Shown here: in pieces, positions 18,612 to 23,801 of the stretch
Layout of the letters: each line of letters begins with the position of its first letter
How positions within the stretch are numbered: the first letter of the stretch is position 1
Origin: Alkalilimnicola ehrlichii MLHE-1
Lineage (GTDB): Bacteria > Pseudomonadota > Gammaproteobacteria > Nitrococcales > Halorhodospiraceae
Length of the DNA: 32,000 nucleotides
Direction of reading: 5' to 3'
NCBI RefSeq assembly: GCF_000014785.1
Contig: NC_008340.1
Span: 2,520,001 to 2,552,000, forward strand
The notes under the pieces: generated by a model
Database searches by the model: none
What the model saw: the letters and a program-made list of their open reading frames with translations, nothing else
What the model was told of the DNA's origin: nothing
Made by a program: the position numbers and the translations under genes

Positions 18612-18718
18612 CCTGCTTATCCCTCCGGTGAAAAACGGGGCAGTATAGCAGTTGTCAATGACGAGGACAGCTTTGTGCTAACCTGGGAGGGTACAGGGTA
18701 TTACCGCCGGAGGTGGCC

Positions 18719-18955
18719 ATGGACATCAACAACGCCTTCAACAGCGGCCTGCAGGGCGTCTACGCCGCGCAGTCCGGCCTGGAGCGCAGCGCCCTGGCCG
18801 TGGCCCGGGAGACCGCCCGGACGGCCGACGGTGCCGAGGACATCAACACCGCCCTGGTGCAATCGCTCAGCTACCAGCGCCAGGGCGAGGCCTCGGTGCG
18901 GGTGGTCCAGGCCGCCGACGAACTGCTGGGCACCCTGCTCAACGAACGCGCCTGA
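18719..18955 (+). CDS. small hypothetical protein (78 aa)
   Basis: ATG at 18719 with a GGAGG SD 5 nt upstream; the ORF-track GTG at 18713 sits inside the SD. Sequence MDINNAFNSGLQGVYAAQSGLERSALAVAR... The resemblance to flagellar rod/hook N-terminal or YjfB-like small motility proteins is weak. Confidence 0.5.
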   Translation: MDINNAFNSGLQGVYAAQSGLERSALAVARETARTADGAEDINTALVQSLSYQRQGEASVRVVQAADELLGTLLNERA

Positions 18956-18976
18956 CCCCGCTCCCGCTCCGCCCCA

Positions 18977-19073
18977 TTAGTGCCCCCGAACCGAACACGT
19001 TGGCAGGCGGCCCTTAGGGCTGTGGATCGCCGCGTCGCTTCGCTCCTCGCGATGACGGGGGTGAGGCCCCCAC
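18977..19073. repeat. degenerate A-type repeat unit; its 3' half matches the 97-bp unit of the 22.3-23.7 kb array
   Basis: TGTGGATCGCCGCGTCGCTTCGCTCCTCGCGATGACGGGGGTGAGGCCCCCAC (19021-19073) is nearly identical to the second half of the 97-bp unit. The 5' half is only loosely similar. Confidence 0.7.
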
Positions 19074-19151
19074 CGTCACTGCGAGGAGGCGAAGCCGACG
19101 TGGCAGTCTACCGCCCTGGATCGCCACGGGCCTTCGGCCCTCGCGATGACG
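19074..19151. repeat. 78-bp B-type palindromic module, copy B1
   Basis: CGTCACTGCGAGGAGGCGAAGCCGACGTGGCAGTCTACCGCCCTGGATCGCCACGGGCCTTCGGCCCTCGCGATGACG. The left and right arms are imperfect inverted repeats. Confidence 0.95.
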
Positions 19152-19241
19152 AGGGGAAAGCCTTCGGCCCTCGCGATGACGGGGAGGAAGCCTTCGGCCC
19201 TCGCGATGACGGGGAGGAAGCCTTCGGCCCTCTTGATGAAC
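19152..19241. repeat. three tandem 30-bp mini-modules (GGGAGGAAGCCTTCGGCCCTCGCGATGACG); the third is degenerate
   Basis: Unit starts at 19152, 19182 and 19212, read directly. Each reiterates the right-arm end of the B module. Confidence 0.9.
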
Positions 19242-19298
19242 TTGGCCAGACGCTGCGGGCGCCCCCTACCCTCACTGCGAACGCGGACCCACCCCCAC

Positions 19299-19376
19299 CG
19301 TCACTGCGAGGAGGCGAAGCCGACGCGGCAGTCTACCCCTCTGGATCGCCACGGGCCTTCGGCCCTCGCGATGACG
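19299..19376. repeat. 78-bp B-type palindromic module, copy B2
   Basis: Differs from copy B3 (23541-23618) at a single base (GACGCGG versus GACGTGG). Confidence 0.95.
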
Positions 19377-19529
19377 GGGAGAAAGCCTTCGGCCCTCGCG
19401 ATGACCGGGGGTGCCCCGTTCCTCGTTGATTCGCGCCCGCGCAGCGGGGAGGGGGGCTCGCGATGACGGGGGTGCCCCGTTCCTCGCTGATTCGCGCCCG
19501 CGCAGCGGGGCGGGGGGCTCACGATGACG
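19377..19529. repeat. one 30-bp mini-module (19377-19406) followed by two tandem C-type modules of about 61 bp (19407-19468, 19469-19529)
   Basis: GGGGTGCCCCGTTCCTCG(T/C)TGATTCGCGCCCGCGCAGCGGGG(A/C)GGGGGGCTC(G/A)CGATGACG occurs twice head to tail. Both copies end in the family core. Confidence 0.9.
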
Positions 19530-19548
19530 GGACGATCCGCCCCGACAG

Positions 19549-19572
19549 GGCCGGCGGCGTAAGCCGCCGGCC
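19549..19572 (-). terminator. GC-rich stem-loop just downstream of the phaC stop (10-bp stem, 4-nt loop, no U-tract)
   Basis: GGCCGGCGGC-GTAA-GCCGCCGGCC sits 12 nt past the phaC stop codon. The absence of a T-run makes its function as an intrinsic terminator uncertain. Confidence 0.35.
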
Positions 19573-19584
19573 AGCCCCGAGCGC

Positions 19585-21393
19585 TCATTTCGGGTCGTCG
19601 TGACGCTCCTTGACGTAGCTGCCGGGGGCGTCCTCGATAGGCGGGTGCTGCTCGCTGCCCAACTGCTGCGGCGCCTCGACCTTGGCACCGCCCTTATGGG
19701 CCAGCCACTTGCCCCAGTCGTTCCACCAGGACCCCTCAAAGTGCTTGGCGCTCTCCAGCCACTCGTCCTGATCCACCGTCTTCTTGGTGGAGGTCCAGTA
19801 GCCGTATTTATTCCGCGACGGCGGGTTGATGACCCCGGCGATGTGGCCGGAGCCGCCCAGCACATACTTAGTGGGCCCGGAAAGCAACTGCGGACCGCGG
19901 AGGGTGCTCTTCCAAGGGGCGATGTGGTCCTCCTTGGCCGACATGAAGTAGGCGGGCACCTTAATCTGGGACAGATCGATGGGTTCGCCGGCCAGGGTGA
20001 TGCCACCGGGCTGCTTGAGCAGGTTCTTCTGGTACATGTTGCGAAGATAGAAGCTGTGCATCTTCGCCGGCATGTTGGTGGCGTCGGAGTTCCAGTAGAG
20101 CAGGTCGAAGGGGAACGGCTCGTCACCCTTCAGGTAGTTGTTGACGAAGAACGACCAGATCAGGTCGTTGGCACGCAGCATGTTGAAGGTGGTGGCCATC
20201 TGCTGGCCCTCCAGATAGCCCTTGGCGCCCATCTTGCGCTCGAGCATCTGGATCTGCTCCTCGTCGATGAACACCTCCAGCTCCCCCGGATACTCGAAAT
20301 CGAGCATGCAGGTCAGGAAGGTGGCGGCCTTCACGCGGTCGTCGCCCTTGGCGGCCAGGTAGGCCAGGGTGCAGGCCAGCAGGGTGCCGCCCAGGCAGTA
20401 GCCCACGCAGCTCAACTCCCGGCTGCCGGTGATCTCGTTGACCGCATCCATGGCCGCCAGCGGCCCTTCAAGCATGTAGTCCTCGAAGGTCTTGTCCGCC
20501 TCCTTCTCCGTGGGGTTTTTCCACGAGATCATGAACACCTGGTGGCCCTGCTCCAGCAGCCACTTGACCATGGAGTTCTTGGGCGACAGGTCCATGATGT
20601 AGTACTTGTTGATCCAGGCCGGCGTCAGCAGCATGGGCCGCTTGTGGACCTTCTCGGTCTGCGGCTGGTACTGGATCAGCTGGATCAGGTCGTTCTGGTA
20701 GACCACCTTGCCCGGCGTGGTGGCGACGTTCTCGCCCACCTCGAAGGCGTCCAGGTCGGTCATACGGATGTTCAGCTTGCCACCGCCCCGGGACAGGTCC
20801 TCAAGCATGTTCTTGAGGCCCTTGATCAGGTTCTCACCCCGGGTTTCCAGGGTCTTCTCCAGCACCTCGGGGTTGGTCGCCACGAAGTTGGTGGGCGACA
20901 TGGCGTCGATGAAGGCGCGGGTGTAGAAATCGACCTTCTGCGCGGTGCGGTCGTCCAGGCCCTCGGTCTCCTTCACCGTGCGGTGCAGGTAGTCGGCGCT
21001 CAGCAGGTAAGACTGCTTGATAAAGTCGAACAGCGGGTTGTCCTCCCAGTGTTCGCTCTTGAACCGCCGGTCCCCCTTGGACGGGCTGACCACGGGGTCG
21101 GACTGGAACCCCCAGAAGCGCAGCGCGGAGTTCTGCATGAGAGTCGCATAGTCCTGCCAGAAGGCCATCTGCGACTGCCAGAGGCGCACCGGGTCGGCCA
21201 TCGCACGGGCGGCCCACTCCTGGAACGGCTTGCTCATGGCCAGAGCATCCTCCACCGAGATGTGGTGCTCGGTCTGCTCCTTGGCCAGGAAGTCGTTGAC
21301 CAGCTTCTGGCTGGTGGTTGCGATCTCCGACAGCGCTTCCGAGAGTTCGGACGTTTCCAGAGCGCCGGGCTCCGTGGGTTTATTGTTCGCCAT
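19585..21393 (-). CDS. phaC: class I poly(3-hydroxyalkanoate) synthase
   Basis: 602 aa from the ATG at 21393, with a GGGAGG SD upstream. Contains the lipase box GYCLGG and the conserved PHA synthase N-terminal and alpha/beta-hydrolase regions. The ORF-track N-terminal extension was rejected. Confidence 0.93.
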   Translation of the reverse strand: MANNKPTEPGALETSELSEALSEIATTSQKLVNDFLAKEQTEHHISVEDALAMSKPFQEWAARAMADPVRLWQSQMAFWQDYATLMQNSALRFWGFQSDPVVSPSKGDRRFKSEHWEDNPLFDFIKQSYLLSADYLHRTVKETEGLDDRTAQKVDFYTRAFIDAMSPTNFVATNPEVLEKTLETRGENLIKGLKNMLEDLSRGGGKLNIRMTDLDAFEVGENVATTPGKVVYQNDLIQLIQYQPQTEKVHKRPMLLTPAWINKYYIMDLSPKNSMVKWLLEQGHQVFMISWKNPTEKEADKTFEDYMLEGPLAAMDAVNEITGSRELSCVGYCLGGTLLACTLAYLAAKGDDRVKAATFLTCMLDFEYPGELEVFIDEEQIQMLERKMGAKGYLEGQQMATTFNMLRANDLIWSFFVNNYLKGDEPFPFDLLYWNSDATNMPAKMHSFYLRNMYQKNLLKQPGGITLAGEPIDLSQIKVPAYFMSAKEDHIAPWKSTLRGPQLLSGPTKYVLGGSGHIAGVINPPSRNKYGYWTSTKKTVDQDEWLESAKHFEGSWWNDWGKWLAHKGGAKVEAPQQLGSEQHPPIEDAPGSYVKERHDDPK

Positions 21394-21507
21394 GCATGCA
21401 CCTCCCAGGGCTGGGCGCCGCCGGTTTTTGGGCAGCGCTTCCAAAAGCGTTCGCGCATAGTACTGTAGTGGCCGGCGCAGCGACAAGAAACCGGGAGCCC
21501 GCTGTCA

Positions 21508-22302
21508 ATGATCAACCGCAACCACCGGCCATTACGGGGCGTCCTGAGCGACCCCGACGAGCCGGCAGCCGCCGCCGCCCTGGCCCACCGGCTCGACCTG
21601 CCGCTGCTCACCGAGCCCCCCGAGACGCCCGCCCTCTTTCTACACCATAGCCGCAACGGCCTGGCCCTGCGCAGCAGTGGGTCGAACGCGCCCGGCCCGA
21701 TACGGGTGAGCCTGGACGAGGGCCGGCAAGGCCAGCGCCTGCGCCAGGCCAGCCTGAAACGGGAGACGCTGGCCCGGGCCTGCGGGCTGCGCGGGGGGCG
21801 GTCGCTGCGCATCGTCGACGCCACCGCCGGCCTCGGTCGGGACGCCATGGTACTGGCCGCCCTCGGCGCACGGGTCACCCTGATAGAGCGCCACCCGGTG
21901 ATCGCCGCACTGCTGGCCGACGGCCTGCGCCGGGCGCGACGCAGCCATCCCGAGCTGGCCGCCCGCCTGCACCTGGTGGAGGCGGACAGCCTGCAGTGGC
22001 TGGCCGAGCTGACCCCGGCGGAACGGCCCGAGGTGATTTGTCTCGACCCGATGTACCCGGCCGGAAGCACGCGCGGCGCGGTCCGCAAGGACCTGCAGGC
22101 GCTGCGGGAGCTGCCCGACTGGCCGGGCCTGGCCCCGGTGGACGAGGTCGCCCTGCTCGCGCTCGCCCGCGCCAGCGCCACCGCCCGGGTGGTGGTCAAA
22201 CGCCCCGGGCGGGCCGCCCCACTGGCCGGCAAGGCACCGGACTGGCAACTGCCCGGGCGCAGCACCCGGTTCGATGTCTACCGGGGGCTCGCCGGGGATT
22301 AA
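21508..22302 (+). CDS. rsmJ: 16S rRNA (guanine1516-N2)-methyltransferase RsmJ-like SAM-dependent methyltransferase
   Basis: 264-aa ORF. DATAGLGRDAMVLAALGARVTLIERHPVIAALLADGL and VVKRP...RFDVY closely parallel E. coli RsmJ as I recall it. Confidence 0.87.
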   Translation: MINRNHRPLRGVLSDPDEPAAAAALAHRLDLPLLTEPPETPALFLHHSRNGLALRSSGSNAPGPIRVSLDEGRQGQRLRQASLKRETLARACGLRGGRSLRIVDATAGLGRDAMVLAALGARVTLIERHPVIAALLADGLRRARRSHPELAARLHLVEADSLQWLAELTPAERPEVICLDPMYPAGSTRGAVRKDLQALRELPDWPGLAPVDEVALLALARASATARVVVKRPGRAAPLAGKAPDWQLPGRSTRFDVYRGLAGD

Positions 22303-22376
22303 GGGTGCCGCGAAGGGCGCGCGATGACGGGGATGGGGGCGCCCCCACCGTCACTGCGAGCCCCCGACCCATCATC
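22303..22376. repeat. degenerate or truncated leading units of the array
   Basis: GCGCGATGACGGGGATGGGGGCGCCCCCACCGTCACTGCGAG is a variant of the junction hairpin. It is followed by a truncated 28-bp unit (22349-22376). Confidence 0.85.
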
Positions 22377-23540
22377 CGTCACTGCGAGCCCCGAAGGGGC
22401 GTGGCAGCCCACGCCGGGGTGTGGATCGCCGCGTCGCTGCGCTCCTCGCGATGACGGGGGTGGTGGCCCCCACCGTCACTGCGAGCCCCGAAGGGGCGTG
22501 GCAGTCCATACCGGGGTGTGGATCGCCGCGTCGCTGCGCTCCTCGCGATGACGGGGGTGGTGGCCCCCACCGTCACTGCGAGCCCCGCAGGGGCGTGGCA
22601 GTCCACGCCAGGGTGTGGATCGCCGCGTCGCTACGCTCCTCGCGATGACGGGGGTGGTGGCCCCCACCGTCACTGCGAGCCCCGAAGGGGCGTGGCAGTC
22701 CATACCGGGGTGTGGATCGCCGCGTCGCTGCGCTCCTCGCGATGACGGGGGTGGTGGCCCCCACCGTCACTGCGAGCCCCGAAGGGGCGTGGCAGTCCAC
22801 GCCGGGGTGTGGATCGCCGCGTCGCTGCGCTCCTCGCGATGACGGGGGTGGTGGCCCCCACCGTCACTGCGAGCCCCGAAGGGGCGTGGCAGTCCATACC
22901 GGGGTGTGGATCGCCGCGTCGCTGCGCTCCTCGCGATGACAGGGGTGGTGGCCCCCACCGTCACTGCGAGCCCCGAAGGGGCGTGGCAGCCCACGCCGGG
23001 GTGTGGATCGCCGCGTCGCTGCGCTCCTCGCGATGACGGGGGTGGTGGCCCCCACCGTCACTGCGAGCCCCGAAGGGGCGTGGCAGTCCACGCCGGGGTG
23101 TGGATCGCCGCGTCGCTGCGCTCCTCGCGATGACGGGGGTGGTGGCCCCCACCGTCACTGCGAGCCCCGAAGGGGCGTGGCAGTCCATACCGGGGTGTGG
23201 ATCGCCGCGTCGCTGCGCTCCTCGCGATGACAGGGGTGGTGGCCCCCACCGTCACTGCGAGCCCCGAAGGGGCGTGGCAGCCCACGCCGGGGTGTGGATC
23301 GCCGCGTCGCTGCGCTCCTCGCGATGACGGGGGTGGTGGCCCCCACCGTCACTGCGAGCCCCGAAGGGGCGTGGCAGTCCACGCCAGGGTGTGGATCGCC
23401 GCGTCGCTACGCTCCTCGCGATGACGGGGGTGGTGGCCCCCACCGTCACTGCGAGCCCCGAAGGGGCGTGGCAGTCCATGCCGGGGTGTGGATCGCCGCG
23501 TCGCTACGCTCCTCGCGATGACGGGGGTGGTGGCCCCCAC
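22377..23540. repeat. 12 head-to-tail copies of a 97-bp palindromic unit (A-type)
   Basis: Unit starts fall at 22377 + 97n for n = 0 to 11. Consensus: CGTCACTGCGAGCCCCGAAGGGGCGTGGCAGTCCACGCCGGGGTGTGGATCGCCGCGTCGCTGCGCTCCTCGCGATGACGGGGGTGGTGGCCCCCAC. Only 7 positions vary among copies. Confidence 0.98.
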
Positions 23541-23618
23541 CGTCACTGCGAGGAGGCGAAGCCGACGTGGCAGTCTACCCCTCTGGATCGCCACGGGCCT
23601 TCGGCCCTCGCGATGACG
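23541..23618. repeat. 78-bp B-type palindromic module, copy B3
   Basis: Same orientation as B1 and B2, with 1 mismatch to B2. Confidence 0.95.
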
Positions 23619-23677
23619 GGGGGAAAGCCTTCGGCCCTTGCGATGACGGGGAAAGCCTTCGGCCCTTGCGAGGATGG
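23619..23677. repeat. two 30-bp-type mini-modules; the second is degenerate
   Basis: GGGGGAAAGCCTTCGGCCCTTGCGATGACG followed by GGGAAAGCCTTCGGCCCTTGCGAGGATGGGG. Confidence 0.85.
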
Positions 23678-23687
23678 GGCTATCACT

Positions 23688-23724
23688 AAAATAAAAGGGC
23701 CCCATCCCGTGGGATGGAGCCCCT
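23688..23724 (-). terminator. rho-independent terminator downstream of tRNA-Gln
   Basis: The minus strand reads GGGGCTCCATCCC-ACG-GGATGGGGCCC followed by TTTTATTTT. Confidence 0.75.
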
Positions 23725-23727
23725 TGT

Positions 23728-23801
23728 TGGCTGGGGGACCAGGATTCGAACCTGGGTTGACGGAGTCAGAGTCCGTAGTCCTACCGCTAGACGATCCCCC
23801 A
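23728..23801 (-). tRNA. tRNA-Gln (anticodon CUG)
   Basis: The minus strand reads TGGGGGATCGTCTAGCGGTAGGACTACGGACTCTGACTCCGTCAACCCAGGTTCGAATCCTGGTCCCCCAGCCA. It folds by hand into a cloverleaf: 7-bp acceptor stem, anticodon stem ACGGA/TCCGT with loop CTCTGAC, T-arm CCAGG-TTCGAAT-CCTGG, and an encoded CCA. Confidence 0.93.

What the first reader, a model, noticed from the sequence alone, without database searches (positions are those of the whole stretch)
22303..23680. 1.36-kb array of 12 near-identical 97-bp palindromic units in the gap between rsmJ and tRNA-Gln
Seen directly in the sequence:
- The motif CGTCACTGCGAG recurs at exactly 22377 + 97n for n = 0 to 11. Degenerate or truncated units lie upstream (22303-22376), and a different module type (B plus 30-bp units) lies downstream (23541-23677).
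- The 12 units differ at only 7 of 97 positions (offsets 18, 32, 36, 37, 40, 63 and 80). Six of those seven differences are transitions.
- Each unit junction forms a long imperfect hairpin: CTCGC-GA-TGACGG-GGGTGGTGGCCCCCA-CCGTCA-CT-GCGAG.
- Inside each unit there are two overlapping, mutually exclusive hairpins, GCCCC-GAA-GGGGC and GGCGTGG-CAGT-CCACGCC, plus ATCGC...GCGAT. The CG-to-TA variant at offsets 36-37 weakens the second hairpin in roughly every other unit.
- The region has no AT-rich promoter-like stretch and no ORF longer than 75 aa on either strand. Since 97 leaves remainder 1 on division by 3, no single frame can run through successive units.
- It is the only long non-coding stretch in an otherwise tightly packed core region. 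It sits between the ends of two convergent transcription units: rsmJ on the plus strand, and rplM-rpsI-tRNA-Gln on the minus strand.

Inference: this is a REP/BIME- or REPIN-like palindromic element that has amplified into a satellite. No RAYT, transposase, cas gene or other obvious partner gene is in the window. Possible roles are a multi-hairpin 3' UTR or transcriptional insulator, a protein-binding array, or a recombination hot-spot. I cannot choose between these from sequence alone.
Basis: partly seen in the sequence, partly recalled or inferred. Interest (0 to 1): 0.7.

Follow-up and report, generated by a model that had tools for sequence, protein, structure and literature searches.

The report
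Tandem array of Ssn-type hairpin repeats
The 1.36-kb stretch is a real but dispensable, strain-specific pile-up of short hairpin DNA repeats ("CGTC-tagged" REPs) that in other bacteria flank small GIY-YIG single-strand nucleases (the Ssn family), so it is an unusually large member of a known kind of repeat.

Summary
In detail: 12 tandem 97-bp units at 22377-23540, differing at 7 columns. Each unit holds two inverted 35-nt hairpin repeats: type A on the + strand (CGTC-ACTGC-GAG..GCAGT-CCA) and type B on the - strand (CGTC-ATCGC-GAG..GCGAT-CCA). That makes it a BIME-like cluster of REPIN-like doublets.

The head is CGTC, not GT[AG]G. It therefore belongs to the CGTC-tagged REP superfamily (Di Nocera 2013), not the RAYT-linked one. 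Since 2025 the known partner of that superfamily is Ssn, a ~95-aa GIY-YIG nuclease that cuts single-stranded DNA beside its hairpin (Chenal 2025).

I found this REP subfamily within 400 bp of ssn homologues in 51 of 80 metagenome loci, on both sides in 34. One Sphingomonadales locus shows the same A/B alternation with period 96. The published Ssn-motif search string misses the subfamily entirely (0 hits in the window).

A second Alkalilimnicola ehrlichii genome lacks the whole 1341-bp cluster, so it is not essential. Units 4-6 equal units 7-9, which points to growth by block duplication.

No ssn or RAYT gene lies in the window. I could not test whether the genome encodes Ssn.

Verdict: a new variant of a known kind, of modest interest.

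The parts
22303..22376 (.). Degenerate left edge of the cluster. It holds a type-B head remnant, CGTCATCGCGCG (22318-22329, - strand), which the array-less strain also has, and a truncated type-A head (22349-22360, + strand).
22377..23540 (.). Twelve tandem 97-bp units. Each unit is: type-A REP (35 nt, + strand), a 10-nt tail-to-tail spacer, type-B REP (35 nt, - strand), and a 17-nt head-to-head spacer. Units 4-6 are identical to units 7-9, a 291-bp block duplication.
22765..22799 (+). Example type-A REP: CGTC | ACTGC | GA | GCCCC-GAA-GGGGC | GTG | GCAGT | CCA.
22810..22844 (-). Example type-B REP, read on the - strand: CGTC | ATCGC | GAG GAGC-GCA-GCGA CGCG | GCGAT | CCA.
23541..23618 (.). Variant doublet: type A2 (23541-23577, +, 37 nt, GGC-GAA-GCC inner hairpin) and type B2 (23584-23618, -, GGCC-GAA-GGCC). 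It is part of a 129-nt composite module that also occurs at 19057-19185 and 19282-19410.
   Evidence: (D5)
23597..23679 (-). Direct tandem repeats of 28-30 bp. Each is a head-only, truncated type-B REP (CGTCATCGC[G/A]AG GGCCGAAGGC TTTCCCC) lacking the 3' half of the outer stem.
   Evidence: D3/D4
22332..22338 (+). Left copy of the 7-bp direct repeat GATGGGG that bounds the 1341-bp presence/absence polymorphism.
23673..23679 (+). Right copy of GATGGGG. The array-less strain keeps a single GATGGG here.
18985..19535 (.). Second cluster of the same REP family, in another convergent gap (80-aa Flg_bbr_C-like ORF on + versus phaC on -). It holds A2/B1/B2 REPs, a 30-bp head-only array (19130-19239) and 61-bp units (19395-19531).
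21508..22302 (+). rsmJ-type SAM-dependent methyltransferase gene (PF04445). Its stop codon abuts the cluster.
23694..23725 (-). Intrinsic-terminator-like hairpin plus T-run downstream of tRNA-Gln. It is not part of the repeat and is conserved in the array-less strain.
23728..23801 (-). tRNA-Gln (CTG).

Best explanation
The stretch is a BIME-like cluster of CGTC-tagged REP hairpins. Twelve tandem copies of a 97-bp doublet are flanked by variant and truncated units. Each doublet is one type-A REP on the top strand and one type-B REP on the bottom strand, tail to tail.

Shown:
- Each REP has an unpaired CGTC head, a 5-bp outer stem (A-Y-Y-G-C / G-C-R-R-T), an internal loop, a 4-5-bp inner stem capped by a GNA triloop, and a CCA tail.
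- The stems are kept by compensatory changes across phyla.
- In other bacteria this REP subfamily sits immediately around genes for ~95-aa single-domain GIY-YIG nucleases of the Ssn family.
- A conspecific strain lacks the cluster.

Inferred:
- The hairpins are Ssn-related motifs that act as single-stranded DNA. When the region is unwound (replication, repair, DNA uptake), each hairpin on either strand is a binding site for a cognate Ssn nuclease, which cuts a few nucleotides 5' of the CGTC head, as shown for Neisseria SsnA and its NTS.
- A doublet landed, or was already present, next to a solo REP remnant at the rsmJ stop codon. It then expanded locally by slipped-strand or unequal recombination of one- and three-unit blocks.
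- The array is selfish or neutral DNA tolerated in a convergent, terminator-side gap. Any effects on the rsmJ 3' end or on local recombination are by-products.
For: Architecture:
- Strict +A/-B alternation with exact 97-bp spacing. There are 26 full REPs in the two clusters.

Family structure:
- Among 213 distinct REPs from many taxa, the head YY and tail RR dinucleotides are complementary in 145 (TT/AA 74, TC/GA 39, CT/AG 32). Only 8 do not fit and 6 are G-T compatible.
- On 82 distinct 35-mers, 86.6% of cells are paired, against 21-57% when the partners are slid. There are 74 compensatory cells against 14.1 +/- 3.0 in shuffles (0 of 500 shuffles reach this). Six of 10 pairs change on both sides.

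Link to Ssn:
- Three of the 26 genome loci fetched purely by the REP arm pattern carry a small GIY-YIG gene embedded in the REPs.
- Starting from the protein instead, 51 of 80 metagenome loci encoding homologues have a CGTCAYYGCRAG head within 400 bp, 34 of them on both sides.
- In L024, ssn is flanked by alternating B(-)/A(+) REPs with period 96, the same two types as in the window.
- The REPs beside ssn in L058 are near-identical to the window's A1, A2 and B2 types.
- Homologues in the same set are flanked by canonical Neisseria-type NTS (L105, both sides; L082, L093). This places these proteins in the Ssn family of PMC11893778.
- The protein motif co-varies with repeat type: K[AGS]GSR goes with GCGAG-type REPs (45 of 46 loci with any REP) and KWxRxWK with CCCGC/NTS-type (4 of 4).

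Dispensability:
- A. ehrlichii CP184336 (L027) and a Logan assembly (L028) have only about 57 bp between the rsmJ stop codon and the tRNA-Gln terminator.
- The difference is a clean 1341-bp indel between GATGGGG repeats. The flanks are 96.3% and 99.8% identical.

Local amplification:
- Spacers are identical in all units, and units 4-6 equal units 7-9.
- Five of the 7 variable columns fall in the N of the two GNA triloops or in the tail-to-tail spacer.
- Tandem arrays of this family occur in 39 places in other loci.
Against: - No ssn gene lies in the window or in 20 kb of the sister strain. I could not scan the rest of the A. ehrlichii genome, so a cognate nuclease in this organism is unproven.
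- The published degenerate Ssn-related-motif string finds 0 matches in the window. Membership therefore rests on my association data, not on the published definition.
- No Ssn of this clade has been tested biochemically on a GCGAG-type hairpin.
- The + strand RNA of a unit also folds very stably, so an RNA-level side role is not excluded.
- Most dispersed copies, such as those in 120 IMG/VR contigs, have no adjacent ssn. This is also expected for a one-gene, many-repeats system.
Confidence: 0.72

Rival explanations
1. Orphan satellite. The units descend from Ssn-type REPs, but A. ehrlichii no longer has, or never had, a cognate nuclease. The array is then inert DNA that grows and shrinks by replication slippage or unequal recombination alone. 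Its only effects are physical: hairpins or cruciforms, and a recombination hot-spot.
For: No ssn in the window or the sister-strain locus. No Alkalilimnicola entry among the best 120 Ssn homologues of the closest REP-matched query. Block duplication explains the growth without any enzyme. The cluster is present in one strain and absent in another.
Against: Chenal et al. report that 81% of genomes with more than 200 such motifs encode an Ssn homologue. The same composite 129-nt module is present at three sites in two gaps, and a further REP array exists at Mlg_1951. That suggests dispersal, not only local slippage. The top-120 list is a weak negative, because the family has thousands of members.
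Confidence: 0.2
2. RAYT-mobilised REPIN cluster. The doublets are non-autonomous elements moved by a REP-associated tyrosine (Y1/HUH) transposase encoded elsewhere in the genome.
For: The doublet architecture and tandem clusters resemble REPIN clusters in Pseudomonas fluorescens SBW25. Related Ectothiorhodospiraceae (Thioalkalivibrio) do carry RAYTs and TIRYTs.
Against: The head is CGTC, not the GT[AG]G guide that defines RAYT substrates. Di Nocera et al. found no CGTC repeat flanking any tyrosine transposase. tblastn with eight RAYT/TIRYT queries found nothing at E <= 1e-4 in the window or in 232 REP or ssn loci. The gene actually flanked by this REP subfamily is GIY-YIG.
Confidence: 0.04
3. 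Functional RNA-level element. The array is a multi-hairpin 3'UTR that stabilises or terminates the rsmJ transcript, or insulates the convergent rsmJ and rplM-rpsI-tRNA-Gln units.
For: It starts directly after the rsmJ stop codon. The + strand RNA of one unit folds at -53 to -61 kcal/mol with z about -4.2 to -4.6. REPs in E. coli are documented 3'UTR modulators (title and abstract listed). Both clusters lie in convergent gaps.
Against: No T-run follows the hairpins and no terminator-like site was found inside the array. No Rfam family matches, even at E <= 10. A conspecific strain manages with about 57 bp in the same gap. The hairpins are equally present on both strands. One or two hairpins would be enough for such a role.
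Confidence: 0.1
4. Assembly artefact, or a protein-coding or CRISPR-like array.
For: Short-read assemblies break here: the L029 contig ends inside the repeat. Mechanical ORFs of 96-161 aa exist.
Against: The units carry an ordered pattern of 7 variants with a three-unit super-period. An independent assembly shares the right-hand junction. There are no unique spacers and no cas genes; the window holds housekeeping genes only. The ORFs have no Pfam match. A 97-bp period shifts the reading frame at every unit.
Confidence: 0.02

Closest known systems
Ssn-related motifs (SRM) / Neisseria NTS with the SsnA GIY-YIG ssDNA nuclease (Chenal et al., Nat Commun 2025, PMC11893778)
   Same: A directional hairpin repeat with a conserved, unpaired 5' CGTC(A) head and an (A)TCC(A) tail. 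Hundreds of extragenic copies that form clusters. The repeats bracket a ~95-aa single-domain GIY-YIG gene (repeat-ssn-repeat). The proteins next to this subfamily are homologous to ones bracketed by canonical NTS.
   Different: - The stem is ATTGC/ATCGC/ACTGC + GAG with a nested GNA-triloop hairpin (27-37 nt), not ATTCCCGC-loop-GCGGGAAT.
- The published search string HGTCWYN(0-2)YYVSBRH... gives 0 hits in the window and hits in only 7 of 80 ssn loci. By contrast, 52 of those 80 loci carry the GCGAG-type head.
- The partner proteins carry a K[AGS]GSR motif instead of KWxRxWK.
- Neither an ssn gene nor nuclease activity has been shown for A. ehrlichii.
CGTC-tagged REP superfamily, families CGTC-1 to CGTC-4 (Di Nocera, De Gregorio & Rocco, BMC Genomics 2013, PMC3733652)
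   Same: An unpaired CGTC head (sometimes TGTC), a stem opening with A:T, a CCA tail, head-to-head dimers, extragenic placement downstream of convergent genes, and no tyrosine transposase association.
   Different: The described families have one 8-9-bp stem and a 4-5-nt loop. Here there is a 5-bp outer stem, an internal loop, an inner stem and a 3-nt loop. Clusters and tail-to-tail dimers were called rare for CGTC repeats, but here they dominate. A. ehrlichii is not among the species analysed.
BIME-2 of E. coli and tandem REPIN/REP clusters of Pseudomonas fluorescens SBW25 (Bertels & Rainey 2011, PMC3116915)
   Same: Regular alternation of two REP types in opposite orientation. Tandem repetition of nearly identical doublets together with their flanks. 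Arrays of up to 12 REPs.
   Different: Those are GT[AG]G-headed REPs tied to RAYT (Y1/HUH) genes. The largest ordered REPIN cluster in SBW25 is about 700 bp with 4 REPINs, whereas this array has 12 doublets over 1.16 kb.
IS110-family elements and phage recombinases that target REPs or dRS3
   Same: In the sister strain, an IS110-family transposase gene sits inside the other REP cluster of this region. This fits the known REP targeting by ISPpu9 (listed) and the dRS3 targeting noted.
   Different: This is a user of the repeats as a landing site. It is not their generator, and no IS is present in the window.

Membership tests
REP / BIME (generic) | Short imperfect palindromes in extragenic space, repeated, with clusters of regularly spaced units in alternating orientation | tested here: met
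   Alternating +A/-B heads at fixed spacing. Two extragenic clusters in 32 kb. A further array at Mlg_1951. The genome-wide copy number was not obtainable.
GTAG REP / REPIN-RAYT system | Conserved 5' GT[AG]G tetranucleotide at the foot of the hairpin | tested here: not met
   The head is CGTC (rarely TGTC) in all units. CGTC is invariant in 82 of 82 distinct 35-mers.
GTAG REP / REPIN-RAYT system | A single-copy Y1 (HUH) transposase gene flanked by the same REPs | tested here: not met
   No RAYT or TIRYT hit in the window or in 232 related loci, 1.64 Mb. The whole A. ehrlichii genome could not be scanned.
CGTC-tagged REP superfamily (Di Nocera 2013) | Unpaired CGTC head, stem opening with A:T, 3-nt CCA-like tail | tested here: met
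   Columns 1-4 (CGTC) are invariant, the pair 5:32 is A:T in 82 of 82, and the tail is CCA in most.
CGTC-tagged REP superfamily (Di Nocera 2013) | Single 8-9-bp stem with a 4-5-nt loop (families CGTC-1 to CGTC-4) | tested here: not met
   A 5-bp outer stem, an internal loop, a 4-5-bp inner stem and a 3-nt GNA loop. Element lengths are 27-37 nt.
Ssn-related motif (SRM) / NTS (Chenal 2025) | Match to the published degenerate search sequence HGTCWYN(0-2)YYVSBRHN(0-5)WNVSBRGN(0-2)RNCYNB | tested here: not met
   0 matches in the window on either strand. The control NTS sequence matches.
Ssn-related motif (SRM) / NTS (Chenal 2025) | The repeat brackets genes for small single-domain GIY-YIG (Ssn) proteins, often on both sides | tested here: met
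   Met for the REP subfamily in other organisms: 51 of 80 loci within 400 bp, 34 on both sides, plus L018, L009 and L024 found from the REP side.
Ssn-related motif (SRM) / NTS (Chenal 2025) | A cognate ssn gene in the same genome | not testable with these tools
   None in the window or in 20 kb of strain CP184336. The top-120 homologue lists contain no Alkalilimnicola entry.
Ssn-related motif (SRM) / NTS (Chenal 2025) | Strand-specific binding and cleavage of the hairpin as ssDNA by Ssn, with no activity on dsDNA or RNA | not testable with these tools
   This needs a biochemical assay. The only indirect hints are that G-T pairs are rare (10 of 820 cells) and that C-GNA-G triloops occur in 116 of 145 REPs. 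Such triloops are known, from my own knowledge, to be very stable in ssDNA.
Ssn protein family (cd10448) | About 95-aa single GIY-YIG domain, homologous to proteins bracketed by canonical NTS | tested here: met
   PF01541 is the only domain. Homologues L105, L082 and L093 are flanked by CGTCATTCCCGCG...GCGGGAATCCAG. CDD assignment itself was not available, and there is no PDB relative by sequence.
CRISPR array | Direct repeats separated by unique spacers, usually with cas genes | tested here: not met
   The spacers are identical in all units and the repeats alternate in orientation. The window contains housekeeping genes only.
Known structured RNA (Rfam 15) | A covariance-model match | tested here: not met
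   Only tRNA-Gln passes the gathering score. Nothing credible at E <= 10 in 18900-23800.

The most novel reading that the evidence does not exclude
The GCGAG-headed REPs (CGTCAYYGCGAG ... GCRRTCCA) and the K[AGS]GSR clade of Ssn nucleases may form a distinct, very widespread repeat-enzyme pair that the published Ssn-motif definition misses. On this reading, the tandem doublet arrays (this one is the largest I saw) are produced by the nuclease itself: nicks 5' of hairpins on both strands provoke template switching or re-insertion next to existing heads. That would make it a GIY-YIG-driven, non-autonomous replicator analogous to REPIN-RAYT.
Probability: 0.25. Interest if true: 0.6.

Novelty: new variant of a known kind. 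Interest (0 to 1): 0.33.

Why it matters
For this genome it matters little. The array is dispensable, strain-variable repeat DNA, and any ORFs called across it (like Mlg_1951 elsewhere in the genome) are spurious.

More generally, three points follow:
- One of the commonest hairpin repeats in bacterial and metagenomic DNA, the CGTCA(T/C)(T/C)GCGAG type, belongs with the recently discovered Ssn single-strand nucleases, yet it falls outside the motif used to define their targets.
- Repeat type tracks a short motif in the protein, which is a candidate specificity determinant for engineering ssDNA cutters.
- A. ehrlichii offers a natural pair of strains, with and without a 12-unit array, for testing what such arrays do to transcription, recombination and DNA uptake.

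Tried and rejected
- **Rfam:** scans at the gathering threshold and at E <= 10 returned only tRNA-Gln.
- **Literature string search:** searching for the repeat or its peptide translations returned only irrelevant primer matches.
- **RAYT/TIRYT:** I rebuilt 8 sequences from the supplement of PMC3733652. They gave no hit in the window or in any locus. A search with the Thioalkalivibrio K90mix TIRYT listed no Alkalilimnicola protein among the best 120; this is a weak negative.
- **Exact-protein look-ups:** RsmJ and Mlg_1951 are not on record, so I could not fetch other MLHE-1 loci.
- **REP-array ORF as a protein query:** it found only Mlg_1951.
- **Ssn query chosen for its A. ehrlichii-like flanking REPs (L058):** no Alkalilimnicola hit among the top 120.
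- **HMM built from 80 Ssn homologues:** no ssn in the window, L027 or the Thioalkalivibrio loci.
- **IMG/VR scan:** at least 120 contigs carry the REP, but only 3 have an ssn-like ORF and none is adjacent. This gave no insight into phage involvement.
- **PDB sequence search with Ssn:** no match.
- **NCBIfam:** no specific model for these proteins.
- **Rejected readings:** CRISPR, protein-coding repeat, and assembly artefact, for the reasons given under the rival explanations.
Full report
**What is there**

The window is almost certainly from Alkalilimnicola ehrlichii MLHE-1. Its L13 and S9 proteins are identical to ABI57584 and ABI57583, from a 3,275,944-bp contig. The only protein homologue of an ORF read across the repeats is Mlg_1951 of that strain.

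TRF finds a 97-bp period with 12.1 copies at 22376-23552. The motif CGTCACTGCGAG sits at 22377+97n for n = 0-12. The arm motif is more than ten-fold over-represented relative to shuffles.

- Stop-free stretches of 96-117 codons exist on all frames, and mechanical ORFs reach 118-161 aa, none with a Pfam match.
- A second repeat-filled gap of the same family lies at 18956-19584.

The rest of the window is housekeeping: his, murA, mla, kds, lpt, rpoN, pts, pur, phaC, rsmJ, rpsI-rplM and trp genes. It contains no transposase, nuclease or cas gene.

**Anatomy**

A search for the 12-nt head on both strands shows a strict alternation:
- + strand, type A: CGTC-ACTGC-GAG...GCAGT-CCA
- - strand, type B: CGTC-ATCGC-GAG...GCGAT-CCA

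A unit is therefore made of four parts: a type-A REP (35 nt), a 10-nt tail-to-tail spacer, an inverted type-B REP (35 nt), and a 17-nt head-to-head spacer.

Of the seven variable columns:
- two are the N of the GNA triloops;
- three are in that spacer;
- one changes CGTC to TGTC;
- one breaks the last pair of the type-A outer stem.

Downstream there is a variant doublet (A2/B2), followed by 28-30-bp direct repeats. Those direct repeats are head-only, truncated type-B units. The same 129-nt composite module occurs three times across the two gaps.

Units fold stably as DNA or RNA on either strand.

**Origin of the array**

Units 4-6 are identical to units 7-9, and all spacers are identical. The array therefore grew by duplication of one- and three-unit blocks, not by repeated independent insertions.

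A second A. ehrlichii genome (CP184336, locus L027) and a Logan assembly (L028) have identical L13 and S9 but only about 57 bp between the rsmJ stop codon and the tRNA-Gln terminator. The difference is a clean 1341-bp indel between two GATGGGG repeats. The flanks are 96.3% and 99.8% identical. Both strains share a solo type-B head remnant next to the rsmJ stop codon.

A third assembly (L029) ends inside the right-hand units. This independently supports the junction and shows why short reads fail here.

The cluster is thus strain-variable and dispensable.

**What family it belongs to**

The arm pair occurs in Limnohabitans, Comamonadaceae, Thioalkalivibrio, Sphingomonadales, Anaerolineaceae, Vicinamibacteria and other genomes, often in arrays.

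Across 213 distinct copies the two variable stem positions co-vary: TT/AA 74, TC/GA 39, CT/AG 32, and only 8 do not fit. On 82 distinct 35-mers:
- the two-helix model is 86.6% paired, against 21-57% for slid controls;
- there are 74 compensatory cells, against 14 in shuffles (0 of 500 shuffles reach this);
- the outer helix is 99.8% paired.

Most copies have a C-GNA-G triloop (116 of 145). From my own knowledge, that motif is exceptionally stable in single-stranded DNA.

The unpaired CGTC head, the A:T opening pair and the CCA tail place the element in the CGTC-tagged REP superfamily of Di Nocera et al.. It is not one of their four families, which have a single 8-9-bp stem and a 4-5-nt loop. 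That paper stressed that CGTC repeats, unlike GTAG repeats, have no associated tyrosine transposase. In line with this, I found no RAYT or TIRYT in the window or in 1.64 Mb of related loci.

**The partner**

Three of the 26 loci recovered purely by the repeat pattern carry a ~90-aa GIY-YIG gene embedded in the repeats.

A literature search then showed that this link was published in 2025. Chenal et al. found that the Neisseria NTS (CGTCATTCCCGCGMAVGCGGGAATCYRG, the CGTC-1/dRS3 repeat) brackets ssnA. They showed that SsnA is a site-specific nuclease that binds the hairpin and cuts just upstream of it. It acts only on single-stranded DNA and only on one strand. It restricts NTS-bearing transforming DNA, and thousands of homologues are flanked by 'Ssn-related motifs'.

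I tested the link from the protein side. Of 80 metagenome loci encoding homologues, 51 have a CGTCAYYGCRAG head within 400 bp, 34 of them on both sides. Further points:
- The Sphingomonadales locus L024 has ssn flanked by alternating B(-)/A(+) REPs with period 96, the same two types and architecture as the window.
- L058 has REPs nearly identical to the window's A1, A2 and B2 types.
- Other homologues in the set are bracketed by canonical NTS, which ties these proteins to the Ssn family.

The published degenerate motif, however, finds nothing in the window and matches in only 7 of the 80 loci, whereas 52 loci carry the GCGAG-type head.

Repeat type tracks a protein motif: K[AGS]GSR goes with GCGAG-type and KWxRxWK with NTS/CCCGC-type.

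The protein family is large: 11,889 clusters at 50% identity with E <= 0.001, and 3,980 with E <= 1e-10. Many gene calls run into REP-encoded peptides.

**How it most likely works**

Shown:
- the hairpin architecture and its conservation;
- the association of this REP subfamily with an Ssn clade;
- local block amplification;
- dispensability.

Inferred:
- In A. ehrlichii the roughly 29 heads in the cluster (14 on the top strand, 15 on the bottom) are Ssn recognition sites that matter only when the DNA is single-stranded.
- The array expanded by slippage or unequal exchange in a tolerant convergent gap.
- Any effect on the rsmJ 3' end is incidental.

Missing link: neither the window nor the sister-strain locus contains ssn, and I could not scan the rest of the genome. 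An 'orphan satellite' version of the explanation therefore remains a real rival.

**Verdict**

The REP/BIME reading is right. The RAYT/REPIN framing and the novelty estimate are not.

This is a large, strain-specific member of a known kind of repeat, in a sub-type that current Ssn-motif definitions miss. I rate it a new variant of a known kind, with interest about 0.33.

Noticed in passing
L027 14102-15496 (A. ehrlichii CP184336), orthologous to window ~19240-19450: An IS110-family transposase gene (PF01548 + PF02371) is inserted inside the phaC-side REP cluster of the sister strain. The window has no IS there, and the repeat modules on either side are rearranged. This fits the known habit of IS110 elements of targeting REPs.
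   Followed up: partly
window 19130-19239 and 23597-23679; also L003 6624-6800, L006 4186-4288: Direct (head-to-tail) tandem arrays of head-only, truncated REPs. The period is 30/28 bp in A. ehrlichii and 21 bp in Limnohabitans. They keep the CGTC head and the GNA mini-hairpin but lack the 3' half of the outer stem. How they form is unexplained.
   Followed up: partly
window 19395-19531: 61-bp tandem units (2.2 copies) begin with a type-B head but continue with an unrelated body (CCCCCCTCCCCGCTGCGCGGGCGCGAATCA...). This may be a chimeric module.
   Followed up: no
protein P0123 = Mlg_1951 of A. ehrlichii MLHE-1 (not in the window): This annotated 156-aa 'hypothetical protein' is a translation of another REP array. 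It contains a 31-aa peptide repeated twice and the motifs SPVIAR and PRHREERSDAAI. It is almost certainly a spurious gene call.
   Followed up: partly
80 metagenome loci L033-L112: The Ssn protein motif co-varies with the flanking repeat type. K[AGS]GSR goes with GCGAG-type REPs (45 of 46 loci with any REP). KWxRxWK goes with CCCGC/NTS-type (4 of 4). It is a candidate specificity determinant.
   Followed up: partly
L099 3001-3255, L105 111-374: Some ssn copies flanked by REPs carry in-frame stop codons, so they are decaying copies.
   Followed up: no
Only 3 contain an ssn-like ORF, and none of those is adjacent to the REP.
   Followed up: partly
(genome-contig scan): The scan of one genome per species returned no A. 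ehrlichii record, although the window contains 13 exact matches to the pattern. Presumably the species representative is an array-less strain, or the stretch is masked. L018 also shows a run of N inside its REP cluster.
   Followed up: no
L007 3625-4111 and L021 (Thioalkalivibrio): Related Ectothiorhodospiraceae carry arrays of A2-like REPs with a period of about 133 bp on both sides of an SLT_4 transglycosylase gene. The family is therefore shared within the wider group.
   Followed up: partly
window 18713-18955 (+): An isolated 80-aa ORF has only the C-terminal flagellar rod motif (Flg_bbr_C, E = 2e-6). It lies between purE and the REP cluster and is conserved in the sister strain.
   Followed up: no
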